A stretch of 64,000 nt of DNA from a phage, in NCBI GenBank assembly GCA_024449565.1, contig GCA_024449565.1_4810.1. One strand, 5' to 3'. The notes under the pieces were generated by a model, which did not search any database, was not told where the DNA came from, and worked only from the letters and a program-made list of their open reading frames with translations. Shown piece after piece: positions 1,248 through 51,364 of this stretch. Every line of letters begins with the position of its first letter. Positions within the stretch are counted from its first letter, which is position 1. The translations under genes were made by a program, and so were the position numbers.

Positions 1248-3623
1248 TCAACCTTGCTTCGGTGAATTAGTAGGATTATTGAGTGCTCCATATGCTTGAG
1301 AGCAATCACCTTTCAACCACTCCTTGAATGAGTTTACATCTAATTCATGGATTGAATCGAATCCGTTCCAACCGTTACCAAATGATGCCTGATAAGCTTC
1401 TTTCGCTTCTTCTGCTGAATCGAATCCAAGCATACACTTGTGCTCATCAAATTCACCAGAATAATTATCATTTTGGTTAACGATGAATACTTTAGGAGAC
1501 TTCATATTTGGGCCAACAAAACAGTCGACTTCATCACCATCAGCACCCTTGGTGCCTTTGATGAATCCGTAGTGGTGCGGCATTTTGACTGCCCATTCAC
1601 CATCAAGGCTGTTACCCCTACGAATGCTGTTGCGAGGATTCTCGATGCCAAGGATCATCCCGTGCAACTTCATCTTAGGCAGCGACGCGGCATCCATCTT
1701 CCCTACGTTGTGGCGTAAGTTGATGACGTGTCCTTTAACGCTTGGAAGGGTAGACGGTTGCACCGACCGTGAATCTTTTTGAGGGTCAAAATCCACATCC
1801 TGACCCTCTTTCAGGTAGTAATCCGCAATACCCTCCAGACCTTCTTTCAACTGCGTTAGGACATCAACCTGATGGCTTGATTCATCATCGGTATCGTCCA
1901 TGTTGATTTCGACAGGCGCTTTGTCAGGGTTTTCCGCCAACTCACCACGCGCGGCACCCTCTGGCATAATACCTGTTTCGCTATAGAACTGGCCGCCCAT
2001 CTTAACGACATCAGCTTTCGCCTGTTCAATAGCGGCCTTACCTTGCAGGACTTCACCAGCAGACTTGCCAAGCAATGCCATATTCTCTGGAGACATCCCT
2101 GGGGTTTCTTCTGCTGCGTCTTCCGGCAGACGGTTGTAGCCGCTGTTTTTGTCGTCTTTGATGCGGTCGCGCTCTTCATCAGGAGAAATGACGCCAGCAT
2201 CAATAAGAGTTTTGCCAGTGTTGGCTCGCTTATCATTGATTTCTGCAAGTTGAGTAGCAGTAAGTGAGCCAACTGGTTCCCATGCAACCTTAACATCGAC
2301 GTCCACCCCTTCTGATTTGAGAAGGATTTTGTAATGGCGGTCGAGAATTTTTGTCAGGTCATGCTGCTGGCACGTTTCCAACTCTTCGTGATAGCTGACC
2401 ATCTCGAATTCACCAGTGGCGTTAAAGCCTTTTGGCGAAGTCCCAAGCAGTTTGGTCGACGGAACTTTTGCGATTGCGGCCACAAGCTGGTACTGGTTCA
2501 TGATGATACTGTCGAAGTCTGACAAGTTGATGTCAAACTGGTCCATCTCTTCTTTTTGGCCAAGCACTTTGACTGCATAGTTGTCGCGGTACTTGATCCA
2601 CATCATCAGACGTTCTGCAAAAGACCGCTCATTGGCAATAGCCTTGTCAACGTCGGTCCGCAGCGTCGTTGTACGCTTGGACATCGCCAGCAATGGCGCT
2701 TCGTTAGCGGTACGTTCAGCGGCATAGATGCGTTCATAAATCTGCTGAGTCAGAGGAATGCCGCCGTAAATATAAGTCGGCTTGAGAATATCAGCTGGCT
2801 CATCATTGCGCAAGATGATGAGGTGACTTCGATGATAACGTTGTCCGCTGATCACCCAGTATTCTGGATCATAGAAGTGCTGTGATGCAGGGTCTGCGGT
2901 ATTTTCAGACGTCAAAAATGGCATCATCCAATAAGGGTCAACCTGAATGATTCCCTTATAAGACCCCTTTGTCACACCATCAATGTTAAAAGGCTTGCTG
3001 TAATATTCTGGGTCATCGCTACGCACATCAAATATGATGACGCGGATACCAAAAATATTTTTGAATCGTTCGGCTTCAACTAAGTGCTCTTTGATATTAA
3101 ATTCTTTATCAATTTGCTTTAGGCGTTCGCTTGCCTGCACTGACAATTCTGACTCAGAACTGGATTTGACTTCCCAACCTTTACGGACCGCATCGCGGCC
3201 TACCATGGAACACGCCTTGTTCACCAGCCAATGCTGTGCGATGATGGCACAAGCTTGATAGCCGATGAATGACTGTGACAAATACCAGTTTTGAAGTTGA
3301 ATAGGTACTGTGTATGGGTTGACCTGCCCTTCTGAACTAATGTTCTTTAAGGCATTGTCCATAACTTTTTTGGATACTGTTGCGGAATCGACTGAACGGC
3401 CTTTTATGATAGCAACACCGTCGCCATTAATATCAGGCTCATATAAAGGGAAGTCATCAACCGTTTTAAAGGTCGGTCGATTGCTTTCAGTCTTTTCCCA
3501 GCGTTGACCGCTGCCGCGCCTTTCAAGGCGTTCAAACGGTGCCAATGGGTCGCCTGGCGGCATCTCCGCTGGTTCGGCTTCTGGTTGCGTCTTCTCCCAG
3601 AGTTTTATGCCAAGAATTTTCAT
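1248..3623 (-). CDS. portal protein with C-terminal inorganic-pyrophosphatase-like domain
   Basis: Large ORF between terminase and Mu F-like gene; ATG at 3623 with AGGTGG SD (track ORF begins at an upstream TTG); C-terminal about 190 aa contain MPHHYGFIKGTKGADGDEVDCFV and AEEAKEAYQASF, matching the family I pyrophosphatase core. Confidence 0.6.
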   Translation of the reverse strand: MKILGIKLWEKTQPEAEPAEMPPGDPLAPFERLERRGSGQRWEKTESNRPTFKTVDDFPLYEPDINGDGVAIIKGRSVDSATVSKKVMDNALKNISSEGQVNPYTVPIQLQNWYLSQSFIGYQACAIIAQHWLVNKACSMVGRDAVRKGWEVKSSSESELSVQASERLKQIDKEFNIKEHLVEAERFKNIFGIRVIIFDVRSDDPEYYSKPFNIDGVTKGSYKGIIQVDPYWMMPFLTSENTADPASQHFYDPEYWVISGQRYHRSHLIILRNDEPADILKPTYIYGGIPLTQQIYERIYAAERTANEAPLLAMSKRTTTLRTDVDKAIANERSFAERLMMWIKYRDNYAVKVLGQKEEMDQFDINLSDFDSIIMNQYQLVAAIAKVPSTKLLGTSPKGFNATGEFEMVSYHEELETCQQHDLTKILDRHYKILLKSEGVDVDVKVAWEPVGSLTATQLAEINDKRANTGKTLIDAGVISPDEERDRIKDDKNSGYNRLPEDAAEETPGMSPENMALLGKSAGEVLQGKAAIEQAKADVVKMGGQFYSETGIMPEGAARGELAENPDKAPVEINMDDTDDESSHQVDVLTQLKEGLEGIADYYLKEGQDVDFDPQKDSRSVQPSTLPSVKGHVINLRHNVGKMDAASLPKMKLHGMILGIENPRNSIRRGNSLDGEWAVKMPHHYGFIKGTKGADGDEVDCFVGPNMKSPKVFIVNQNDNYSGEFDEHKCMLGFDSAEEAKEAYQASFGNGWNGFDSIHELDVNSFKEWLKGDCSQAYGALNNPTNSPKQG

Positions 3624-3728
3624 TGTTAACGCCACCTGACAGTGAAAGGGAATCAATCTATATTATAAATATTCATGTGTTTGTAAGCAAATGATATGTA
3701 TGGTGATCATAAATAGTTCATAAAATAT

Positions 3729-7316: not shown

Positions 7317-9227
7317 ATGCCAAGGCTAATATTCAAAAACAACTTTGAGGTCGCGCTCGCTCAGCCAGCGACGACTTCAGACACCACAATCACAATCCGC
7401 TCAGGGTCGGGCTTTCCGACCTTGGGCGCAAACGAGCGTGTAGTGGCGACAGTCGTCGACGCTGCAACAGGCCTCCAATTCGAAATCATCACTGTAACAG
7501 CCGTGGTTGGAAACGTGCTAACCGTGCAGCGTGCACAGGAAGGGACTGCAGCGCGTGCATGGAGCGTCGGAGATTTTTTATCCATAAGGGTGACGGCTGC
7601 CATATTGACAAGCACAGTAAGGAATTTTGGAGAATTACCTTCTGGAATAAACTTAAATGCCCTTACTGGTTCTTGGTTCGGTCAATACCAGCAGTCTTCT
7701 AATTCTGCGGCTTCGCAAGTTCTGAATTATCCTGTAGCCCAATCAGGCAGCCTTGAGGTTATTTGCTCGGCAAACAACTCTGGTGACCAATCTTGCACGC
7801 AAATATACAGCACGAATCCTGACAACAAGCAGTACAAAAGAACTTATAATTCAGAAACAAGCACATGGTCTACTTGGGCTAAAATATATAACTCTTCCGA
7901 CGTGATTCCAGTCTCCAATGGAGGGACTGGTGTTTCAGACATAGGATCAATAAGAAGAGCAATATTGGTGCAAGGACTTGAATGTAATGATCAAACTGGT
8001 CCCCAATCATACAACAGCTATCGTTCACCAAATTCAGCATACACATGGAAAATAGATAACTCAGGACTTGTGCAAGTCATAAAGACTTCTGATGGTTCTG
8101 CAGTGCCAATACCTATTGAATCAGGAGGGACTGGTGGAATAACTGCTTATAGTGCAAGGGTTAATCTCTCTTTGGATAGGCTGCGCCAAGAAGGTGCTTA
8201 TACAGAACTGAATTCTGCGAACGGAAGATATAGATTTCTTGTAAATGATTCAGGAGATTGGGGAGGTTTTGATGGTTCCACAAACGGCTGGAAGCCATTG
8301 GCAATAGCGCAGGGAGGGACTGGATCAACCACGTTGGAAGGAGCAAGAACGAATCTGAAAATTGACAGGTTCTTGCAAGGTGATATTGATACAAAAATAT
8401 CAACGCCTGATTCGCAATACAACTTTTTCATCACTGACGCTGATTGGGGTCTTTATGATGTAACATCACTAAATAGAGTTGCACTCCCAATTGTCAGCGG
8501 CGGCACAGGCGGAGTAACTGCTGTTGAATCTTGCAAGTCTCTCGCAGCGATGCATTATAAATACCCAGCGCAAACATCATTTGGGCAGCAATACATGGAG
8601 ACTGGGGTTGGATATTACAGCACTGATCAGTCACCAAGTCCAGGTGGAAGCGGTTCTCCATATAACTATGCCGAGATACTTACTATATCTGAATTTGGTA
8701 ATGGAGCTAACTATTCTCAAATCGCATTTTCAGTGTTGACGGAACAACCGCCGCGATACAGACAAAGGTTTGACTCTAATCCAAGGTTGACTAATTGGCG
8801 AGATTTCCTTATTCGCGATTTGAATACCAGCGTAGACAGCAACGGATTCATAAAAATTGCTTCACCAATAGTCAAAATAAGATTTGATGGATCATTTGAG
8901 CTGAACAGCGAGTCAGAAGGCTGCACAGTGTCAAGAGAAGGAAAGGGGCACTATTTGATAAGCGGTTGCCTCGGATTAAATAGTGATGCCGCCTGGGGAG
9001 GCGTTAACGGCGGCTTTGAAATTCCAGTTGATGTGAATAAACAGCCTAGAATTTGGCTTGACTATAAAGTGAATGAAGATGGATCAGTTGACGTATTCAC
9101 ATATCACAGGGTGCACAATGATGCCCCAGTTTTTGCAAGGAATAACCTTGAAGGTTATGCAGACGGAGACCCAATAGACATACCAAAGGATGCATTTATC
9201 TCTGTGAGGGTGCAAATGCCAAAATAA
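7317..9227 (+). CDS. tail fiber protein (GGTG-repeat type)
   Basis: Four repeats of the (S/E/A/V)-GGTG-x-(S/T) motif (SNGGTGVSD, ESGGTGGIT, AQGGTGSTT, VSGGTGGVT) typical of phage tail fibers; GAGGA SD. Confidence 0.7.
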   Translation: MPRLIFKNNFEVALAQPATTSDTTITIRSGSGFPTLGANERVVATVVDAATGLQFEIITVTAVVGNVLTVQRAQEGTAARAWSVGDFLSIRVTAAILTSTVRNFGELPSGINLNALTGSWFGQYQQSSNSAASQVLNYPVAQSGSLEVICSANNSGDQSCTQIYSTNPDNKQYKRTYNSETSTWSTWAKIYNSSDVIPVSNGGTGVSDIGSIRRAILVQGLECNDQTGPQSYNSYRSPNSAYTWKIDNSGLVQVIKTSDGSAVPIPIESGGTGGITAYSARVNLSLDRLRQEGAYTELNSANGRYRFLVNDSGDWGGFDGSTNGWKPLAIAQGGTGSTTLEGARTNLKIDRFLQGDIDTKISTPDSQYNFFITDADWGLYDVTSLNRVALPIVSGGTGGVTAVESCKSLAAMHYKYPAQTSFGQQYMETGVGYYSTDQSPSPGGSGSPYNYAEILTISEFGNGANYSQIAFSVLTEQPPRYRQRFDSNPRLTNWRDFLIRDLNTSVDSNGFIKIASPIVKIRFDGSFELNSESEGCTVSREGKGHYLISGCLGLNSDAAWGGVNGGFEIPVDVNKQPRIWLDYKVNEDGSVDVFTYHRVHNDAPVFARNNLEGYADGDPIDIPKDAFISVRVQMPK

Positions 9228-45382: not shown

Positions 45383-45925
45383 ATGAAAGCGAACAAATTA
45401 AAGATTGTTTTGATCATCATCATGGCTATGCTGACAGTTATATTCTTCACCAAGACTGCATCGGCTGAAAATATGTTTACGCCGCCGAATGGAAGTGCAA
45501 AAGTTTTGACAAGATATTTCAACAATGGGCAGTCATTTGAGTTTTGCTGGAATAAATACGACGTAATAAAAGAAAGATTTGACAAAGAAAAGATGTGCGT
45601 AATGAATGATCGCGGTCGGCAGGTCGTGTCGTTTGTGTTCGGAATGTCAATGGCAAAAGTTGATGCCCCTGAAATCGTTGTCAGGTATAATACATTGGAC
45701 AGCGGCCTTGTCGACAAGACATACCCTGTTGCAGTAGACAGCAGGACAGGCGGCGCACTAATACTCACTCCAGAAGATAAATCAGATGTCGTTAACATGC
45801 TCATCAACAGCAAAGACGTAATCGTGTTTTATCACATTGAAGGCGTATCAGACTACCAAATGGCCTACTATCCACTGCCCTTGAGAGATGCTTCAGGTAA
45901 TGTTAAGACACAGGAAGTGCGTTGA
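45383..45925 (+). CDS. secreted protein
   Basis: Signal peptide MKANKLKIVLIIIMAMLTVIFFTKTASA; AAAAGGTGA SD. Confidence 0.5.
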   Translation: MKANKLKIVLIIIMAMLTVIFFTKTASAENMFTPPNGSAKVLTRYFNNGQSFEFCWNKYDVIKERFDKEKMCVMNDRGRQVVSFVFGMSMAKVDAPEIVVRYNTLDSGLVDKTYPVAVDSRTGGALILTPEDKSDVVNMLINSKDVIVFYHIEGVSDYQMAYYPLPLRDASGNVKTQEVR

Positions 45926-46152
45926 CATGGGTGGTAGTTATGCAGAAAGATTTGGAAGAAAACAAAAGGCTGAAAAAGGCTTTGACGTCTCAAATCTTAT
46001 CCCTGTTGGTAAAGCTTATTGGGGAGTCAATTAGCAACAAGGTGGCACGGGCCGCGATTGTGGGTGCAATTGGTATGGCGGGGTATTATTTCGACTTACC
46101 AGACATTGATACAAGTTCCGCTCCGCCCGTCCAAGTTGAAGCCGTAAAATAA
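45922..46152 (+). CDS. hypothetical small protein
   Basis: ATGA overlap with upstream gene; one weakly hydrophobic segment. Confidence 0.4.
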   Translation: MTWVVVMQKDLEENKRLKKALTSQILSLLVKLIGESISNKVARAAIVGAIGMAGYYFDLPDIDTSSAPPVQVEAVK

Positions 46153-46154
46153 AC

Positions 46155-46177
46155 AAAGGCCCATATGGGCCTTTTTC
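46155..46177. terminator. bidirectional intrinsic terminator
   Basis: A-run, GGCCC-ATAT-GGGCC hairpin, T-run between convergent genes. Confidence 0.65.
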
Positions 46178-46822
46178 TTACATAACTGCTAGTGCATCTT
46201 TGTAACGCTTTCTTCGCAACTCACCGTGGTTTGCTGCGTTCGGCGCGGCCCCGTTAATCCGCTTAACGGTTGAATCAAAATTTCCTGCATCCGCAAGAGG
46301 AATACAGCCGCTATTCTTAAAGAACCATGCCGCGCTGTCAGCAATGTATTTTGGTTCAGTCAGAATATCAGGATTGTTCAATGCATCATAGCCTGATTGA
46401 CGCGTATATTCCGCATAGTTGGCCTTTCCAGTCAGCTGAATGGCACCACGGCCACGGTACTTCCAACCGTCGCCAGATGCTACTGAACCGTTGCCCATGC
46501 GGTTTGCATATGTATTATTGGCGATTTCCACAGGTTTACGGGCAATCGACAGTGCCAATGAGTTCGGGGCACTTCCAGAGCGACCGTTGACGCTGTAACG
46601 ACTAGGCCATGTATTGGCAAGACCTTGAGCGGAATAATTCAGATTTTCCACAAAGGTCTTCAGACTGCCTGTTTCCACTCCTACGTTTGCAAGCAGCGCC
46701 GCGACGGCATTCTTGCTTTTGATTCCGTAGTGCTCACAAGCCTGCTTGAAGGGGTCGACCCATTTTTCAGCAACATCCATGCTGCATCCGGTCCCTTTAG
46801 ATATTACGTTTGCATTAATCAT
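46178..46822 (-). CDS. endolysin, glycoside hydrolase family 19-like
   Basis: GRGAIQLTGKANY signature and upstream GVETGS segment. Confidence 0.7.
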   Translation of the reverse strand: MINANVISKGTGCSMDVAEKWVDPFKQACEHYGIKSKNAVAALLANVGVETGSLKTFVENLNYSAQGLANTWPSRYSVNGRSGSAPNSLALSIARKPVEIANNTYANRMGNGSVASGDGWKYRGRGAIQLTGKANYAEYTRQSGYDALNNPDILTEPKYIADSAAWFFKNSGCIPLADAGNFDSTVKRINGAAPNAANHGELRRKRYKDALAVM

Positions 46823-46830
46823 AAATCACC

Positions 46831-48615
46831 TTATGCGCTTCTGTACCAGCCGTTCAAGACGACATATCGCGGCAGAGTTGAAACAGCCGTCGGCACGGAC
46901 TGTCCTGCATCGCCAGTGTTACCGACCACATCGTGAGTGTGAGCGGGAAGTGTATAGCTGTGGCTGTGATTTCCGGAAAATTGAATATTCAAGCCATGGG
47001 TGTGTGAACCAGAAGATTGAATATTGTGGACATGGTTGCCGTTAGTTGAAGTGTTGAATTTGTAGTTATCATAATCCGTCTTTCTGCTTCCAATGTTGTT
47101 GTTTGTTCCATCATAAACTCCGTATCGAGCTTGGTCGGCAAACGCCTCGCCCCATCCGCTGTCGTGATGGTGGTTACCAGCTGCATCCATACCGTGAGAG
47201 TGAGCACCGTTTTGGCTTGTATCACCTATGTGGTTATGGTTGCCTGCGTCTCCAGTGGTATTTGACCATGGACCACTTTGTCGCGTGGTAATGTTCACGC
47301 TGTGATTGTGGAGTGGAAGCATTGCAGCGGTAAGGGTAACAGAGTCTGCACCGCCTGTATCAAGACCGTTTCGCGCCGTGCCAGACGTGCGAATCACCAT
47401 GTTATCAGGCAACCTTGTCCATACCTGACCGTAAGCGCCCAGTTTAGTATTTGGGTTAGTCCCGTTGGTAAGGAATCGAGTCTCACCAACTTCGAATACG
47501 TCGCCCATGGTAATCAACTTCGCGGCAAGCGCGTCAAGTTGCCTTTTGGTAACAAATTGCTGCGGCTCCGTAGCATCAACGCCGATTTGCGCCGCGCCGA
47601 ATGCCTGAAGAAGACGCCAAACAGTGCCGTCATAGATGATGGTGAATGGCAACAGGCCTACGATAGCGCCAGCTGGCAACTCGCTGCCGTCGAATCCAAG
47701 AACGGCAACTTTGTTTACACCAATGGTCACGGTGACAGGTCCGGTAGTCGTCACATCATTGACGATTGTCAGGCGACTACCTGCTGACGGAGGCCATGAA
47801 TACCCTGCTGGAACGGTAAGGATTATGTCTTGCGCTCCTTTACCTGATGCAAGATTCGGCGTTCCAATTTGCACGTCTTGAACAGTGGCATTTTGAATCC
47901 AAGCACTCCAAGCACCAGAAGTATAAGAGCGAGTAAACAAATAGCCATTCATTGATGTATATTGCTGCAAGGCAAAGGTTTGCGCATCGACCTGCCAAGC
48001 GCAGACCTGCAGCCGACCTGCAACCTTCGTTGCGCCAACTGCATTCGGGATGTTAGAGCACAGAGCGGCGACGGAATCGGATTGAATCACGATAGTTGTG
48101 GAAGTCGTGATATTATCGAAGTCCACAAAACTTGAAATCAATCCACGAACAAAGTACGGGTTTTGCGCATCGCCGCCAGCAGGCATCGGAATGTATTTTC
48201 GCGCTTCGCTGGGCAGCGTTAATTCCTGCCAAGATTCCGTTTCTCCGTTGGCTGGCACGGCGCTTGTGTTGCCGTCGACCACGCTTTGAAAGATGCGCCA
48301 CTCAGGCGCTGAAGGCGTTCCAGAGTTGCTTACTACGATGGCGTTTTTCGGGTATCCATCCGGCTTCAAGTCAGAAGAGAAATATTGTTGAGCGCCATGA
48401 TCTTGAATAAACATAAGGTTGTCTGTAATCAAATTCAGCAACCAGTTCATGGATTCGCGCTCAACAGCTTTCGCGGCGACGTTTCCAGCCTCCAGGGCAA
48501 GCGCATAGTCAGGGGTGTAGCCGCGCTGGAAGTTCACATAACCACTTGGGCTTGCATCCGGCACCACGGATACATCACCGCTTTGCGCGAAAGGTCTGTT
48601 AATAAGTGTTGGCAT
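46831..48615 (-). CDS. tail fiber protein with C-terminal HxH repeats
   Basis: Start trimmed to ATG MPTLINR with AGAGGA SD; NHNH, AHSHG, NHHHD, HVHN, HTHG, HSHS, HTHD runs near C-terminus. Confidence 0.65.
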   Translation of the reverse strand: MPTLINRPFAQSGDVSVVPDASPSGYVNFQRGYTPDYALALEAGNVAAKAVERESMNWLLNLITDNLMFIQDHGAQQYFSSDLKPDGYPKNAIVVSNSGTPSAPEWRIFQSVVDGNTSAVPANGETESWQELTLPSEARKYIPMPAGGDAQNPYFVRGLISSFVDFDNITTSTTIVIQSDSVAALCSNIPNAVGATKVAGRLQVCAWQVDAQTFALQQYTSMNGYLFTRSYTSGAWSAWIQNATVQDVQIGTPNLASGKGAQDIILTVPAGYSWPPSAGSRLTIVNDVTTTGPVTVTIGVNKVAVLGFDGSELPAGAIVGLLPFTIIYDGTVWRLLQAFGAAQIGVDATEPQQFVTKRQLDALAAKLITMGDVFEVGETRFLTNGTNPNTKLGAYGQVWTRLPDNMVIRTSGTARNGLDTGGADSVTLTAAMLPLHNHSVNITTRQSGPWSNTTGDAGNHNHIGDTSQNGAHSHGMDAAGNHHHDSGWGEAFADQARYGVYDGTNNNIGSRKTDYDNYKFNTSTNGNHVHNIQSSGSHTHGLNIQFSGNHSHSYTLPAHTHDVVGNTGDAGQSVPTAVSTLPRYVVLNGWYRSA

Positions 48616-48625
48616 TGCCGTTCCT

Positions 48626-51364
48626 CTACACGATGTATTTAATTTTTGATAAAAGGGTTGATGCCCAATCACCAGTTAAGTCAGTTATGTTCATGCTTGA
48701 AACATAACCGCCAGCAGCACTTCTTGGAAAGTTTACTGTCGCTACAACATCCCCATTCGAAGCTATCAATTGAACTCCAGTCGCCAGTGACCCTGGGTTT
48801 TTGATGTATATAGAAGTTGCAGTTTTCTTTGCAAAGTCTTCGCTTGTTGAAATCGCAAGCGCATTCATCGTATTACCAGAAACAAGCATCAAGCTTAAAA
48901 TATCAAGTTCAAGAGTCGTACCAACTTCGGTCGGCAAGTCTTTCCCTGATATCAAGCCAATGCTTATTCCACCTGTCGAACCATCCCAAGTCGTTCCTGC
49001 AACAATCTCAGCGGCAAGGTCAACTTCGATACGTTGCAAATCACCTGCGCCTATGCTGTAGAATTTAGGGATATAGCCGCCCATACCATCCGGTACGGTT
49101 ACGAAAAGTTTTTGACCGTTTACCGTGTTGTTTTTAACTATTGCGATAAATGACAAAGGACCAGTCAGGCTGCCAGTGTATTTAGTAGCAAGTACAGCGC
49201 GTGCATAACCGGACGCTGGCACAGTTCCTATTGTAGCGGAAAGCTTGAATGATGGGAACTGGTTGGGCGCACCGCTGATTGGCGTCGCCGTTACCGTGTT
49301 ATCTCCGTCCTTGACGATATTGCCAAAAGATGTGCCGTCATTGGGCTGTGTGTATCGCCAGTAGTTTGTGATCGCGGCACGTGGGATTTCACGACCAAAG
49401 TCATCTCTTGATGCTTTTGAGATTGAATAGTCGTTGACAAGTGCGCCGTCGATAACTTGGTTCACACCTTTCAGAGATTCAAGCTGTCGTATTACGCCTT
49501 TAAAGTTGTTCAGCGGCCACTCGTTTATGCCGCCAACTCTGATGATGCCGTCAGTGTTAATCCATGCGACACCTTCCGTTTCGAATCCTACTCGCGTGTC
49601 TGTTATGTTGCTGACAGTCAAATCAATATCAGATAAGTCTGCGACTTCTTGGTAAAGCTGCCAACGTATTCCGGCATTTGCTGGCAAGAATCCTTCATTC
49701 CTGTCGCCAACTAGCGTCTTAAAGTTGTCGGATAAGTTGTTGGCGAAATAAGGCCCGATGACATATTCCATGTAATAGTCAGCGGTCGGCGGCGGCGGTA
49801 CGCCGTCCAATCGGCTAACGTTCCATGAGCGTCTGATGCCGTCAGTCTCTGCAATCAATGTTGCGTTTCCTGGGTACGGGTAGCCGCCGATTGAACCAGA
49901 GTATGCAAGCGATGAACCAGGCTGCATGAATGATTCACCTACCACGCCATCCCTTGTTGTCAACGGACCGTTTGCGCAAGATATGTTGTTGAGCGTTCCT
50001 GCCGTAACAGACAGGATTGCCGTTCCATCTGCAGGAGGATTTTGAGTCCCATAGAAATAAGGCTCAGGCCCATTAGGATTTTGAACAGGGTCGCAAACAC
50101 AAATGGAGTATCCAAAAAGAAGCGCATCAGACCCTTCAGGCAATTCGCGAGTCTGGGTTGATCCAGCGGCAGTTGCTTTCAACTCAATTGAAAAGCTTGT
50201 TTTCACCCCAGCCGTCGCGTTTGCAGTTTGCTCTACAATCCAGATTCTGTACCAATCGCCGCCGATTGCCTTGATGCCACCACGATTTGATTCCCTTCTC
50301 ACACCGTCGAACTTGCCTGTGATGAAATAACTCAAAGAAGAGTCAAGGTTGAACTGCCCAGTCACTGGGTCGAAAAGTTTTCCATTACTCGATGCATCAC
50401 TGTTCTCTGTTACGGAAACAGAAGCCACGTTTTCAGAAAGCACTTTTATGTAGAAGCTATAGCAAACGTTGACACCAGCCTGAGAAGGAAGCGCAATAGA
50501 TTGGGCGCTTGGATTATTGGCCAAAGAATACACAGGCTCGCCGCTGGAAGCGGTCTTGATGACCCGTACTGCGTTGGCGAAATTCTCTATGGCCTCTCCT
50601 GGGTAGTCACCGCACAGTTGTCCGTAATAGTCAGGGCCGCCATATTGTCGTGTATCGCCGCCGACAATACCAGCGCCGGAACCATTGCCCCATGAATACC
50701 AGTCTGGGTGCGCCATCCGTGACACGGTGCCTGACACTCCGCTGATGGTAAGTCCTGCGTTGTTGCCATGGCTTAAAAGTATCTGCTTATAATCGTGCTG
50801 AATCTCAGTTGACCCTTGCCAGTCGTACAGAAGGAATGAGCCATTGGTTGATTCAGACGAAGACACCGCGCCTTGAGTATTGTCGGTCACATATGCGTAG
50901 CGTGATGAAGAATAATCCCAAGCCTCTCCACGGTTGAAAATCCACTTAAGCATGCGGTTGATACTTTCGATGCGGCCATCACTTGTAAGCGTCAGATAAC
51001 GAAGCTTAAGAAGTATGCGTGCTTCTTCGATATTCTTTACAACCTTCCCGCCAGCACCAAAGAAGTTGCCGCCGATGTTGTCCGCACCTTCAAAGTTGTC
51101 GCGCGTCGGTCCAAACGCCCAGTTGTGCTCATAATTGCTTAAGTCCACAAAGTCTCTTGGTATGCAAAGAATGTCGCACCAAATATAAATGCCCATTGCA
51201 TCACAAGTATCAATGTTGAATATGTTCTTGTACCAGTCAATCCAAAACTGATCTTGATATCGCTCGTACCAGTCACTTTTCTTTTGCACCAAAGATGTGA
51301 TGTTTGGCGCATTGTTCTGCATCCACTTAAGGTTTTGCAACAGGTTTGTGTCAAACTTTTGCAT
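48626..51364 (-). CDS. large baseplate/tail protein (912 aa)
   Basis: Position between baseplate J-like gene and tail fiber; Gly/Ser/Thr-rich C-terminal half. Confidence 0.45.
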   Translation of the reverse strand: MQKFDTNLLQNLKWMQNNAPNITSLVQKKSDWYERYQDQFWIDWYKNIFNIDTCDAMGIYIWCDILCIPRDFVDLSNYEHNWAFGPTRDNFEGADNIGGNFFGAGGKVVKNIEEARILLKLRYLTLTSDGRIESINRMLKWIFNRGEAWDYSSSRYAYVTDNTQGAVSSSESTNGSFLLYDWQGSTEIQHDYKQILLSHGNNAGLTISGVSGTVSRMAHPDWYSWGNGSGAGIVGGDTRQYGGPDYYGQLCGDYPGEAIENFANAVRVIKTASSGEPVYSLANNPSAQSIALPSQAGVNVCYSFYIKVLSENVASVSVTENSDASSNGKLFDPVTGQFNLDSSLSYFITGKFDGVRRESNRGGIKAIGGDWYRIWIVEQTANATAGVKTSFSIELKATAAGSTQTRELPEGSDALLFGYSICVCDPVQNPNGPEPYFYGTQNPPADGTAILSVTAGTLNNISCANGPLTTRDGVVGESFMQPGSSLAYSGSIGGYPYPGNATLIAETDGIRRSWNVSRLDGVPPPPTADYYMEYVIGPYFANNLSDNFKTLVGDRNEGFLPANAGIRWQLYQEVADLSDIDLTVSNITDTRVGFETEGVAWINTDGIIRVGGINEWPLNNFKGVIRQLESLKGVNQVIDGALVNDYSISKASRDDFGREIPRAAITNYWRYTQPNDGTSFGNIVKDGDNTVTATPISGAPNQFPSFKLSATIGTVPASGYARAVLATKYTGSLTGPLSFIAIVKNNTVNGQKLFVTVPDGMGGYIPKFYSIGAGDLQRIEVDLAAEIVAGTTWDGSTGGISIGLISGKDLPTEVGTTLELDILSLMLVSGNTMNALAISTSEDFAKKTATSIYIKNPGSLATGVQLIASNGDVVATVNFPRSAAGGYVSSMNITDLTGDWASTLLSKIKYIV

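What the first reader, a model, noticed from the sequence alone, without database searches (positions are those of the whole stretch)
46831..47400. Dense His-x-His repeats at the tail fiber C-terminus
The C-terminal ~150 aa contain at least seven HxH or HxHxH motifs. Established knowledge: similar motifs coordinate iron in the distal tips of T4 gp37 and gp12. Inference: a metal-stabilised receptor-binding tip here, with no downstream chaperone gene evident (the next gene is the endolysin).
Basis: partly seen in the sequence, partly recalled or inferred. Interest (0 to 1): 0.4.

Follow-up and report, generated by a model that had tools for sequence, protein, structure and literature searches.

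The report
T4 gp37-like His-x-His fibre tip
The histidine pairs are real and mark a T4-long-tail-fibre-type, probably metal-stapled needle tip on the conserved baseplate fibre of a Wifcevirus coliphage, a feature already described in print for this genus, so the finding is correct but ordinary.

Summary
The window is a Wifcevirus, an E. coli myovirus 98% identical to vB_EcoM_WFH. The tail-fibre gene (46831..48615, minus strand, 594 aa) carries eight His-x-His motifs in residues 436-561. Four lie before and four after a 43-residue segment. No shuffle out of 100,000 reaches that count.

A profile of the domain family hits the T4 gp37 tip crystal structure 2XGF (E=4e-17). A profile of seven Wifcevirus-like fibres aligns to gp37 811-1026 with 98.6% probability, His pairs on His pairs. 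All 16 outer histidines are invariant in 12 Wifcevirus orthologues and in relatives down to 32% identity. Amino-acid variation is concentrated in the presumed head domain (33% against about 6% of columns).

The best reading is a gp37-type collar-needle-head tip with up to eight octahedral metal sites. It is fused to a Pbunavirus-type baseplate-binding N-terminus (PDB 9b45). Trimer geometry and metal binding could not be tested here.

The next gene is the endolysin, 8 bp downstream. No gp38 or gp57A homologue is detectable. A hidden chaperone cannot be excluded.

Humolli et al. 2025 (PMC11990801) already report this tip and its HxH motifs for the ManiWeber orthologue. The finding is therefore already known and of low interest.

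The parts
46831..48615 (-). Tail-fibre gene, 594 aa plus stop. It is the orthologue of ManiWeber Bas99_0031 and WFC gp051, both annotated 'tail protein'.
   Evidence: ORF. The annotated orthologues start at MPTLINR. The DNA is 88-98% identical in 29 Wifcevirus records. It matches PHROG 5717 'tail protein' at E=1e-176.
47503..48615 (-). N-terminal baseplate-binding and bead-like shaft region (aa 1-371), Pbunavirus fibre type.
   Evidence: phmmer matches PDB 9b45 (Pseudomonas phage Pa193 gp47 tail fibre), residues 3-368, at E=3.9e-32. The Pa193 structure is described in PMC11456595.
47311..47502 (-). Collar domain, N-terminal part (aa 372-435), ending in the ...GGADSVTLTAAMLP lead-in to the first HxH.
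   Evidence: P18, N19, W29, G52 and D54 (224-aa numbering) are invariant in 16 family members. The AF2 monomer gives pLDDT 79-95 here. Relatives hit Pfam Gp10_C. There is weak profile similarity to T4 gp10 C-terminal domain 2FKK.
47164..47310 (-). Ascending needle strand (aa 436-484) with four HxH motifs at 436, 460, 472 and 482.
   Evidence: Positions. The region aligns to the gp37 HxH motifs. The histidines are invariant.
47035..47163 (-). Presumed head (distal tip) domain (aa 485-527). It is the most variable part of the protein.
   Evidence: It is the 46-residue interval between the fourth and fifth HxH. Fourteen of 43 columns vary among 12 orthologues against about 6% elsewhere (Fisher p=1e-6). 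dN is 0.16-0.19 against 0.016 in the N-terminus. In T4 the equivalent segment (933-959) contacts the receptor (PMC12609058).
46933..47034 (-). Descending needle strand (aa 528-561) with four HxH motifs at 528, 538, 550 and 559.
   Evidence: Positions. The region aligns to the gp37 motifs at 966-998. The histidines are invariant.
46834..46932 (-). Collar domain, C-terminal return strand (aa 562-594), ending ...GWYRSA.
   Evidence: G201, W220 and R222 are invariant in 46 family members, and the W-x-R-[TS]-A ending is common to the family. pLDDT is 88-94.
46178..46822 (-). Endolysin (GH19 chitinase-like). It is the next gene, 8 bp downstream, and the last gene of this operon.
   Evidence: Pfam Glyco_hydro_19 and PHROG 181 endolysin. 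A terminator-like hairpin lies at 46155-46174, and a terminator is annotated there in relatives.
48626..51364 (-). Upstream baseplate wedge protein (DUF2612 / Phage_Wedge1 N-terminus), the likely attachment partner of the fibre.
   Evidence: Pfam DUF2612 at E=1e-15. The same synteny is seen in the relative's contig. In Pa193 the wedge/triplex subunit gp46 carries the fibre-attachment loop.

Best explanation
The C-terminal 223 residues of the conserved Wifcevirus baseplate fibre form a T4 gp37-type receptor-binding tip. In the trimer, each chain leaves a small collar domain and runs outward as one strand of a six-stranded needle carrying four HxH motifs. It then forms a roughly 43-residue head at the far end and returns along the needle with four more HxH motifs. 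It finishes back in the collar with the ...GWYRSA ending. Each HxH from the three chains would supply six imidazoles that coordinate one metal ion octahedrally on the three-fold axis (Fe2+ in gp37). That gives up to eight metal staples that stiffen the needle. The head is the likely receptor contact. The N-terminal 371 residues are a Pbunavirus-type baseplate anchor and bead-like shaft. The gene is co-transcribed with the endolysin as the end of the late structural operon, with no dedicated chaperone gene next to it. Shown here: the motifs, their statistics, their conservation, the profile homology to gp37, the N-terminal homology and the gene order. Inferred: trimeric geometry, metal binding and metal identity, receptor contact by the head, and independence from a chaperone.
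For: Eight HxH motifs are present and 0 of 100,000 shuffles reach that count. The layout is 4 | 46-residue interval | 4, with spacings 24, 12, 10 | 10, 12, 9. T4 gp37 has 3 | 37 | 4 with spacings 32, 14 | 14, 9, 9. The ascending strand is almost the same length in both (49 against 50 residues from the first HxH to the head). The family profile hits 2XGF (gp37 tip) at E=3.8e-17 with His pairs aligned. hhalign of seven Wifcevirus-like fibres against gp37 811-1026 gives 98.6% probability and E=8e-16. Pairwise BLASTP gives 3e-5. All 16 outer histidines are invariant in seven fibres at 32-55% identity and in 12 Wifcevirus orthologues, whereas the x positions and the middle His of HHH vary. In 46 family members the HxH count ranges from 4 to 12. 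It always splits n/n or n/n+-1 around a 35-83-residue interval, as an out-and-back needle requires. Variation is concentrated in the head. AF2 folds the two collar segments together with confidence. [quoted passage not shown] The same tip type is described in Felixounavirus Bas63 fibres (PMC12609058).
Against: The window protein itself passes no Pfam model (Collar, Gp10_C or Phage_fiber). The C-terminal domain alone finds nothing in the PDB by phmmer. Repeat- and composition-rich sequence can inflate profile scores. The monomer AF2 model has pLDDT below 50 across the needle and head and finds no structural neighbour. A trimer could not be modelled. No metal data exist for any Wifcevirus fibre.
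Confidence: 0.85

Rival explanations
1. The tip has the same structure, but the fibre is not the specificity-determining receptor binder. It would act like a T4 short-tail-fibre analogue or a 'mechanical' trigger fibre that binds a conserved envelope component. The second, variable fibre would then choose the host O-antigen.
For: Humolli et al. propose this because the fibre is highly conserved across the genus while the other fibre is variable, and all four BASEL isolates depend on O16 O-antigen (PMC11990801). The C-terminal 224 aa are at least 90% identical in all 28 Wifcevirus records. dN/dS is below 0.1 everywhere. The N-terminus is the Pbunavirus baseplate fibre, the one that would transmit the contraction signal.
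Against: Within the protein, amino-acid change is about sevenfold enriched in the head, with two clear allele classes. That pattern is expected of a surface that does meet a variable ligand. This reading concerns biological role and does not conflict with the structural explanation.
Confidence: 0.4
2. The fibre does need a dedicated folding chaperone, as gp37 needs gp38 and gp57A. That chaperone would be one of the many small unannotated genes elsewhere in the genome, or a host factor. On this reading the 'no chaperone' remark reflects annotation limits, not biology.
For: T4 fibre chaperones are small and poorly conserved. More than half of the roughly 114 genes in ManiWeber are 'hypothetical'. 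The window lacks about 4-7 kb of the genome. Fibre chaperones are 'often' but not always encoded immediately downstream (PMC6116203).
Against: No window ORF of 40 aa or more resembles gp38 or gp57A; the best E-value is 0.97. No chaperone or assembly product is annotated in ManiWeber. The fibre-to-endolysin adjacency is kept in a 55%-identical relative even though its endolysin is of another type. There is no C-terminal intramolecular chaperone domain, since the protein ends in the collar strand. [quoted passage not shown]
Confidence: 0.45
3. The histidine cluster is a compositional or low-complexity feature, or a generic His-rich metal-scavenging tail, with no defined structural role.
For: The region is rich in G, N, S, T and H. 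No Pfam model fires on the window protein.
Against: The motif count is far beyond chance with composition held fixed. Only positions 1 and 3 of each motif are strictly conserved, out to about 30% identity. The symmetric up/down arrangement is conserved family-wide. The family shows homology to a solved iron-binding needle.
Confidence: 0.02

Closest known systems
T4 long tail fibre distal subunit gp37, receptor-binding tip (residues 811-1026, PDB 2XGF)
   Same: Both have the collar-needle-head order, with HxH motifs on both the outgoing and returning strands. The needle strand length is nearly equal. The two share profile-level homology. Both end in a hydrophobic strand that returns to the collar.
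   Different: The window protein has eight HxH (4+4) against seven (3+4). Its inter-motif segment is longer (46 against 37 residues). Pairwise identity is only about 28% over 115 residues. Its collar is nearer the Gp10_C type than Pfam 'Collar'. It is a single 594-aa protein attached directly to a simple baseplate, not the last of four long-tail-fibre proteins. No gp38 or gp57A homologues are found.
Conserved tail fibre of Wifcevirus ManiWeber/Bas99 (called 'Gp32' in Humolli et al. 2025, PLoS Biol, PMC11990801; GenBank Bas99_0031)
   Same: It is the orthologue. The locus DNA is 93.6% identical, it has the same length and position, and all HxH are identical. The paper already describes the T4 gp37-like elongated tip with conserved HxH motifs.
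   Different: There are a few substitutions, mostly in the needle x positions and the head. The paper stresses overall conservation and a 'mechanical' role. The concentration of variation in the head is shown here.
Felixounavirus long and short tail fibres (Bas63 gp27 and gp26; FelixO1 'GP37')
   Same: Both have a gp37-like collar/needle/head tip with six or seven HxH motifs (PMC12609058). tblastn links the Wifcevirus tip to Felixounavirus fibres at about 28-34% identity over the full domain.
   Different: The N-terminal anchors and shaft lengths differ, and so does the number of HxH.
Pseudomonas Pbunavirus tail fibre (Pa193 gp47, PDB 9b45)
   Same: The N-terminal ~370 residues are homologous (E=4e-32), comprising the baseplate-binding loops and three-bead shaft. 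The gene follows the wedge gene in both.
   Different: Pa193 gp47 is 962 aa. Its distal part shows no significant similarity to the HxH tip (second alignment stretch score -2.5).
T4 short tail fibre gp12 and R-type pyocin fibres
   Same: Both use a trimeric HxH site that coordinates a buried metal octahedrally (PMC6116203). PHROG 'tail collar' families match the window tip.
   Different: These have a single HxH site (Zn in the gp12 crystal, Fe in pyocin fibres), not a multi-site needle. Pyocin fibres need a downstream chaperone.

Membership tests
T4 gp37-type receptor-binding tip (collar-needle-head, PDB 2XGF) | Multiple HxH motifs on both an ascending and a descending segment that flank a short head segment | tested here: met
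   There are 4 + 4 motifs around a 46-residue interval. gp37 has 3 + 4 around 37.
T4 gp37-type receptor-binding tip (collar-needle-head, PDB 2XGF) | Detectable sequence homology to gp37 residues 811-1026 | tested here: met
   The family profile hits 2XGF at E=3.8e-17. hhalign gives 98.6% probability and E=8e-16. Pairwise BLASTP gives E=3e-5. The single-sequence phmmer search of the PDB found nothing.
T4 gp37-type receptor-binding tip (collar-needle-head, PDB 2XGF) | Collar domain assembled from segments before and after the needle | tested here: inconclusive
   AF2 packs residues ~1-75 and ~180-220 of the domain together at pLDDT 79-95. Relatives hit Pfam Gp10_C. The window protein itself passes neither Collar nor Gp10_C, and the model found no fold neighbour.
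T4 gp37-type receptor-binding tip (collar-needle-head, PDB 2XGF) | Conservation of the coordinating histidines (positions 1 and 3 of HxH), with x free to vary | tested here: met
   All 16 histidines are invariant in 12 orthologues and in seven relatives at 32-55% identity. The x positions show N/S, S/V and H/Y variation.
T4 gp37-type receptor-binding tip (collar-needle-head, PDB 2XGF) | Intertwined homotrimer with octahedral Fe2+ sites on the three-fold axis | not testable with these tools
No metal analysis is possible. A published AlphaFold-Multimer model of the orthologue is reported to show it.
T4 gp37 assembly system | Dependence on gp38 (adjacent downstream gene) and gp57A chaperones | tested here: not met
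   The downstream gene is a GH19 endolysin 8 bp away. No gp38 or gp57A homologue is found in any window ORF of 40 aa or more. None is annotated in ManiWeber.
Pfam Phage_fiber (PF03335) 14-residue repeat | Passes the Pfam gathering score | tested here: not met
   No Pfam family appears for the window protein even at E<=10. T4 gp37 and relative P0014 do pass.
Pbunavirus-type baseplate tail fibre (Pa193 gp47, PDB 9b45) | Homologous N-terminal baseplate-binding region, encoded directly after the wedge (DUF2612/Phage_Wedge1) gene | tested here: met
   E=3.9e-32 over residues 20-391 of the 613-aa ORF (= 1-372 of the 594-aa protein). The upstream gene carries DUF2612. The same order is seen in a relative's contig.
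Fibres with a C-terminal intramolecular chaperone (Peptidase_S74 / T5-like) | A C-terminal chaperone domain after the receptor-binding domain | tested here: not met
   The protein ends 33 residues after the last HxH, in the conserved collar strand ...GWYRSA. No such Pfam domain is found.

The most novel reading that the evidence does not exclude
The multi-metal gp37-type needle of Wifcevirus, and likewise of Felixounavirus and Sf14-type fibres, may fold and load its eight metal sites without any phage-encoded chaperone. T4 gp37 cannot fold without gp38 and gp57A. If so, this would be a naturally chaperone-free, compact gp37-like tip (223 residues) whose small head could be swapped for receptor engineering.
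Probability: 0.3. Interest if true: 0.4.

Novelty: already known. Interest (0 to 1): 0.15.

Why it matters
The result gives a secure domain map for the conserved Wifcevirus baseplate fibre: anchor, collar, eight-site needle and a variable 43-residue head. It also points to the head as the place to look for receptor contacts. The structure type and its presence in this genus are already published, so the finding adds no new biology. The only open question of some practical interest is whether such a needle folds without a dedicated chaperone. That would matter for recombinant production and engineering of receptor-binding proteins.

Tried and rejected
- Pfam scans of the whole fibre and of the C-terminal domain, up to E=10, gave no family.
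- phmmer of the C-terminal 199 aa against the PDB gave nothing. Only a family profile reached 2XGF.
- The search for homologous proteins returned only distant (38% identity or less) Xenorhabdus and Photorhabdus fibres, not the Wifcevirus orthologues.
- The genomic context of one of those fibres (P0151) was a decayed prophage remnant and uninformative about chaperones.
- Tandem Repeats Finder found no DNA-level repeat, so recent repeat expansion is rejected.
- The idea that ORF 1248..3656 was the second fibre was wrong. It is the portal.
- Chance or low complexity as an explanation is rejected.

Full report
**Identity of the window.** The region 46100-48700 is 98% identical to Escherichia phage vB_EcoM_WFH and 88-98% identical to 29 records, all of the genus Wifcevirus (E. 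coli and Shigella myoviruses of 66-72 kb). Every annotated orthologue begins at the ATG 19 codons further in (MPTLINRPF...). Distant homologues begin at the same place. The GTG would overlap the upstream gene, which ends at 48626. The gene is therefore taken as 46831..48615 (-), 594 aa.

**The observation.** The protein has 19 histidines, and 17 of them lie in the last 160 residues. They form eight H-x-H motifs at residues 436, 460, 472, 482 (HHH), 528, 538, 550 and 559 of the 594-aa protein. This is window 46933-47310, inside the stated coordinates. Shuffling the C-terminal 189 residues with composition fixed gives 1.4 motifs on average, and none of 100,000 shuffles reaches eight. No other ORF in the window has even three. 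There is no DNA-level tandem repeat.

**What the domain is.** The motifs fall into two groups of four around a 46-residue interval. The spacings are 24, 12, 10 | 10, 12, 9.

- T4 gp37, read from the T4 record, has seven motifs at 883, 915, 929 | 966, 980, 989, 998. Its spacings are 32, 14 | 14, 9, 9, around the 933-959 head.
- The distance from the first motif to the head is 49 residues here and 50 in gp37.
- Single-sequence searches are weak or empty. Pfam gives nothing, the PDB gives nothing for the C-terminal domain alone, and BLASTP against gp37 811-1026 gives E=3e-5.
- Profiles are decisive. A 16-member alignment of the domain family hits 2XGF (the gp37 tip) at E=3.8e-17, with His pairs on His pairs, and weakly hits the gp10 C-terminal domain.
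- An alignment restricted to seven Wifcevirus-like full-length fibres aligns to gp37 811-1026 with 98.6% probability and E=8e-16.
- T4 gp37 itself is Pfam Collar + Phage_fiber. Relatives of the window protein are Gp10_C + Phage_fiber. PHROG families called tail collar or tail fibre match the region.

**Family-wide pattern.** An exhaustive HMMER scan of 1.84 billion representatives found 305 proteins at E<=1e-3. In phage genomes the domain occurs in 233 records. These include Felixounavirus (FelixO1 'GP37') and Pantoea phages at about 28-35% identity. In 46 members the number of HxH motifs ranges from 4 to 12. The count always splits n/n or n/n+-1 around a 35-83-residue interval. The chain ends in W-x-R-[TS]-A. 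An out-and-back needle of modular length would produce exactly this pattern.

**Conservation.**

- In seven fibres at 32-55% identity, all sixteen outer histidines are invariant.
- In twelve Wifcevirus orthologues they are again invariant, while the x positions vary (N/S, S/V) and the middle His of HHH is H or Y.
- This fits the gp37 geometry, where positions 1 and 3 face the axis and x faces solvent. That geometry is established knowledge (PMC12609058; PMC6116203).
- Variation within the genus is not uniform. It affects 4.6% of columns in the N-terminal 371 residues, about 6% in the collar segments, 12-14% in the needle strands and 33% in the 43-residue inter-motif segment (Fisher p=1e-6).
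- dN is 0.16-0.19 in that segment against 0.016 in the N-terminus.
- Synonymous divergence is saturated there and two allele classes are visible, which suggests exchange by recombination.
- The segment is therefore best read as the head, the part that contacts a ligand.

**The rest of the protein and its setting.** Residues 1-372 match Pseudomonas phage Pa193 gp47 (PDB 9b45) at E=3.9e-32. In that structure the first ~340 residues form three beads, and loops 38-52 dock on the wedge/triplex subunit (PMC11456595). The upstream gene (48626..51364) has the DUF2612/Phage_Wedge1 N-terminus. This is therefore the baseplate-attached fibre. Downstream, 8 bp away, is a GH19 endolysin (46178..46822). It is followed by a strong hairpin at 46155-46174, which relatives annotate as a terminator. 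Beyond it lie convergent genes.

**Chaperone question.**

- No room exists for a gene between the fibre and the endolysin.
- T4 gp38 and gp57A find nothing among all 763 window ORFs of 40 aa or more; the best E-value is 0.97.
- ManiWeber's PHROG-style annotation lists no assembly or chaperone product.
- A 55%-identical fibre on a 72.5-kb metagenomic contig is also followed directly by an endolysin, of a different family.
- The protein has no C-terminal intramolecular chaperone domain.
Most genes are hypothetical, and a few kilobases of the genome lie outside the window.

**Comparison with the literature.** Humolli et al. 2025 (PLoS Biol, PMC11990801) make several relevant statements.

- They report that this fibre is highly conserved in the genus.
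- They suggest that it may have a more mechanical role, while a second, variable fibre targets O-antigen.

ManiWeber's gene is the orthologue of the window gene. One detail needs correction: gp12's single HxH site holds zinc in the crystal, while iron is documented for gp37, pyocin fibres and spike tips (PMC6116203).

**Verdict.** This is a real, non-random and correctly interpreted feature. It is a gp37-type, probably metal-stapled needle tip with eight predicted sites, on a Pbunavirus-type baseplate fibre. It is already known for this genus, so interest is low. Two points are added here. Variation is concentrated in the head. The fibre-to-endolysin adjacency, with no detectable chaperone, is conserved. 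The second point leaves a modestly interesting question open, namely whether the needle folds without a dedicated chaperone.

Noticed in passing
window 1248..3656 (-): The 802-aa ORF is a portal protein (Phage_portal_3, E=3e-88) fused to a C-terminal inorganic-pyrophosphatase-like domain (InPase PF18823, E=2e-46). The whole fusion is shared at about 51% identity with Pseudomonas (Pbunavirus-like) and Serratia phages. It is annotated only as 'minor head protein' in ManiWeber.
   Followed up: partly
window 7317..9227 (+): This is the position of the second, variable Wifcevirus tail fibre. Here it is 636 aa with a Phage_tail_C_2 (PF25670) C-terminus (E=4e-58). The ManiWeber gene at the same position is 777 aa and is described as a T-shaped dual-RBD fibre. 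This phage therefore seems to carry a different distal module.
   Followed up: partly
window 47035..47163 (-), fibre head segment: Two allele classes of the head exist among 12 Wifcevirus isolates (AFADQ...RK-TDY against ANTND...RKGGDW, the latter with a one-residue insertion). Synonymous divergence is saturated only in this segment, which suggests recombinational exchange of the head.
   Followed up: partly
window 48616..48672 (-): The mechanical ORF start (GTG 48672) overlaps the upstream wedge gene. It adds 19 residues that are absent from all annotated orthologues and homologues. The ATG at 48615 is the likely start.
   Followed up: yes
window 46155..46174: An 8-bp GC-rich hairpin (AAAGGCCC/GGGCCTTT) with T-runs sits between the endolysin stop and the convergent 76-aa gene. 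It looks like a bidirectional terminator closing the late operon, and relatives annotate a terminator there.
   Followed up: partly
window 45383..45925 (+) and 45922..46152 (+): Two small genes converge on the endolysin. One is a 180-aa protein with a signal-peptide-like N-terminus and no family match. The other is a 76-aa protein with a hydrophobic segment (PHROG 5165, unknown function), which could be a lysis accessory or holin candidate next to the endolysin.
   Followed up: no
ManiWeber PQ850618.1 (L001/L003): The paper calls the HxH fibre 'Gp32' and the T-shaped fibre 'Gp114'. In the GenBank record the HxH fibre is Bas99_0031, Bas99_0032 is the endolysin, and the other fibre is Bas99_0109. 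The numbering has shifted between paper and record.
   Followed up: no
(database behaviour): The word-indexed protein search returned no Wifcevirus orthologue of the tip, although 28 exist in GenBank phage records. The closest protein in the 50% representative library is a 56%-identical fibre from a 72.5-kb metagenomic contig of a Wifcevirus-like phage (SRR26188688).
   Followed up: no
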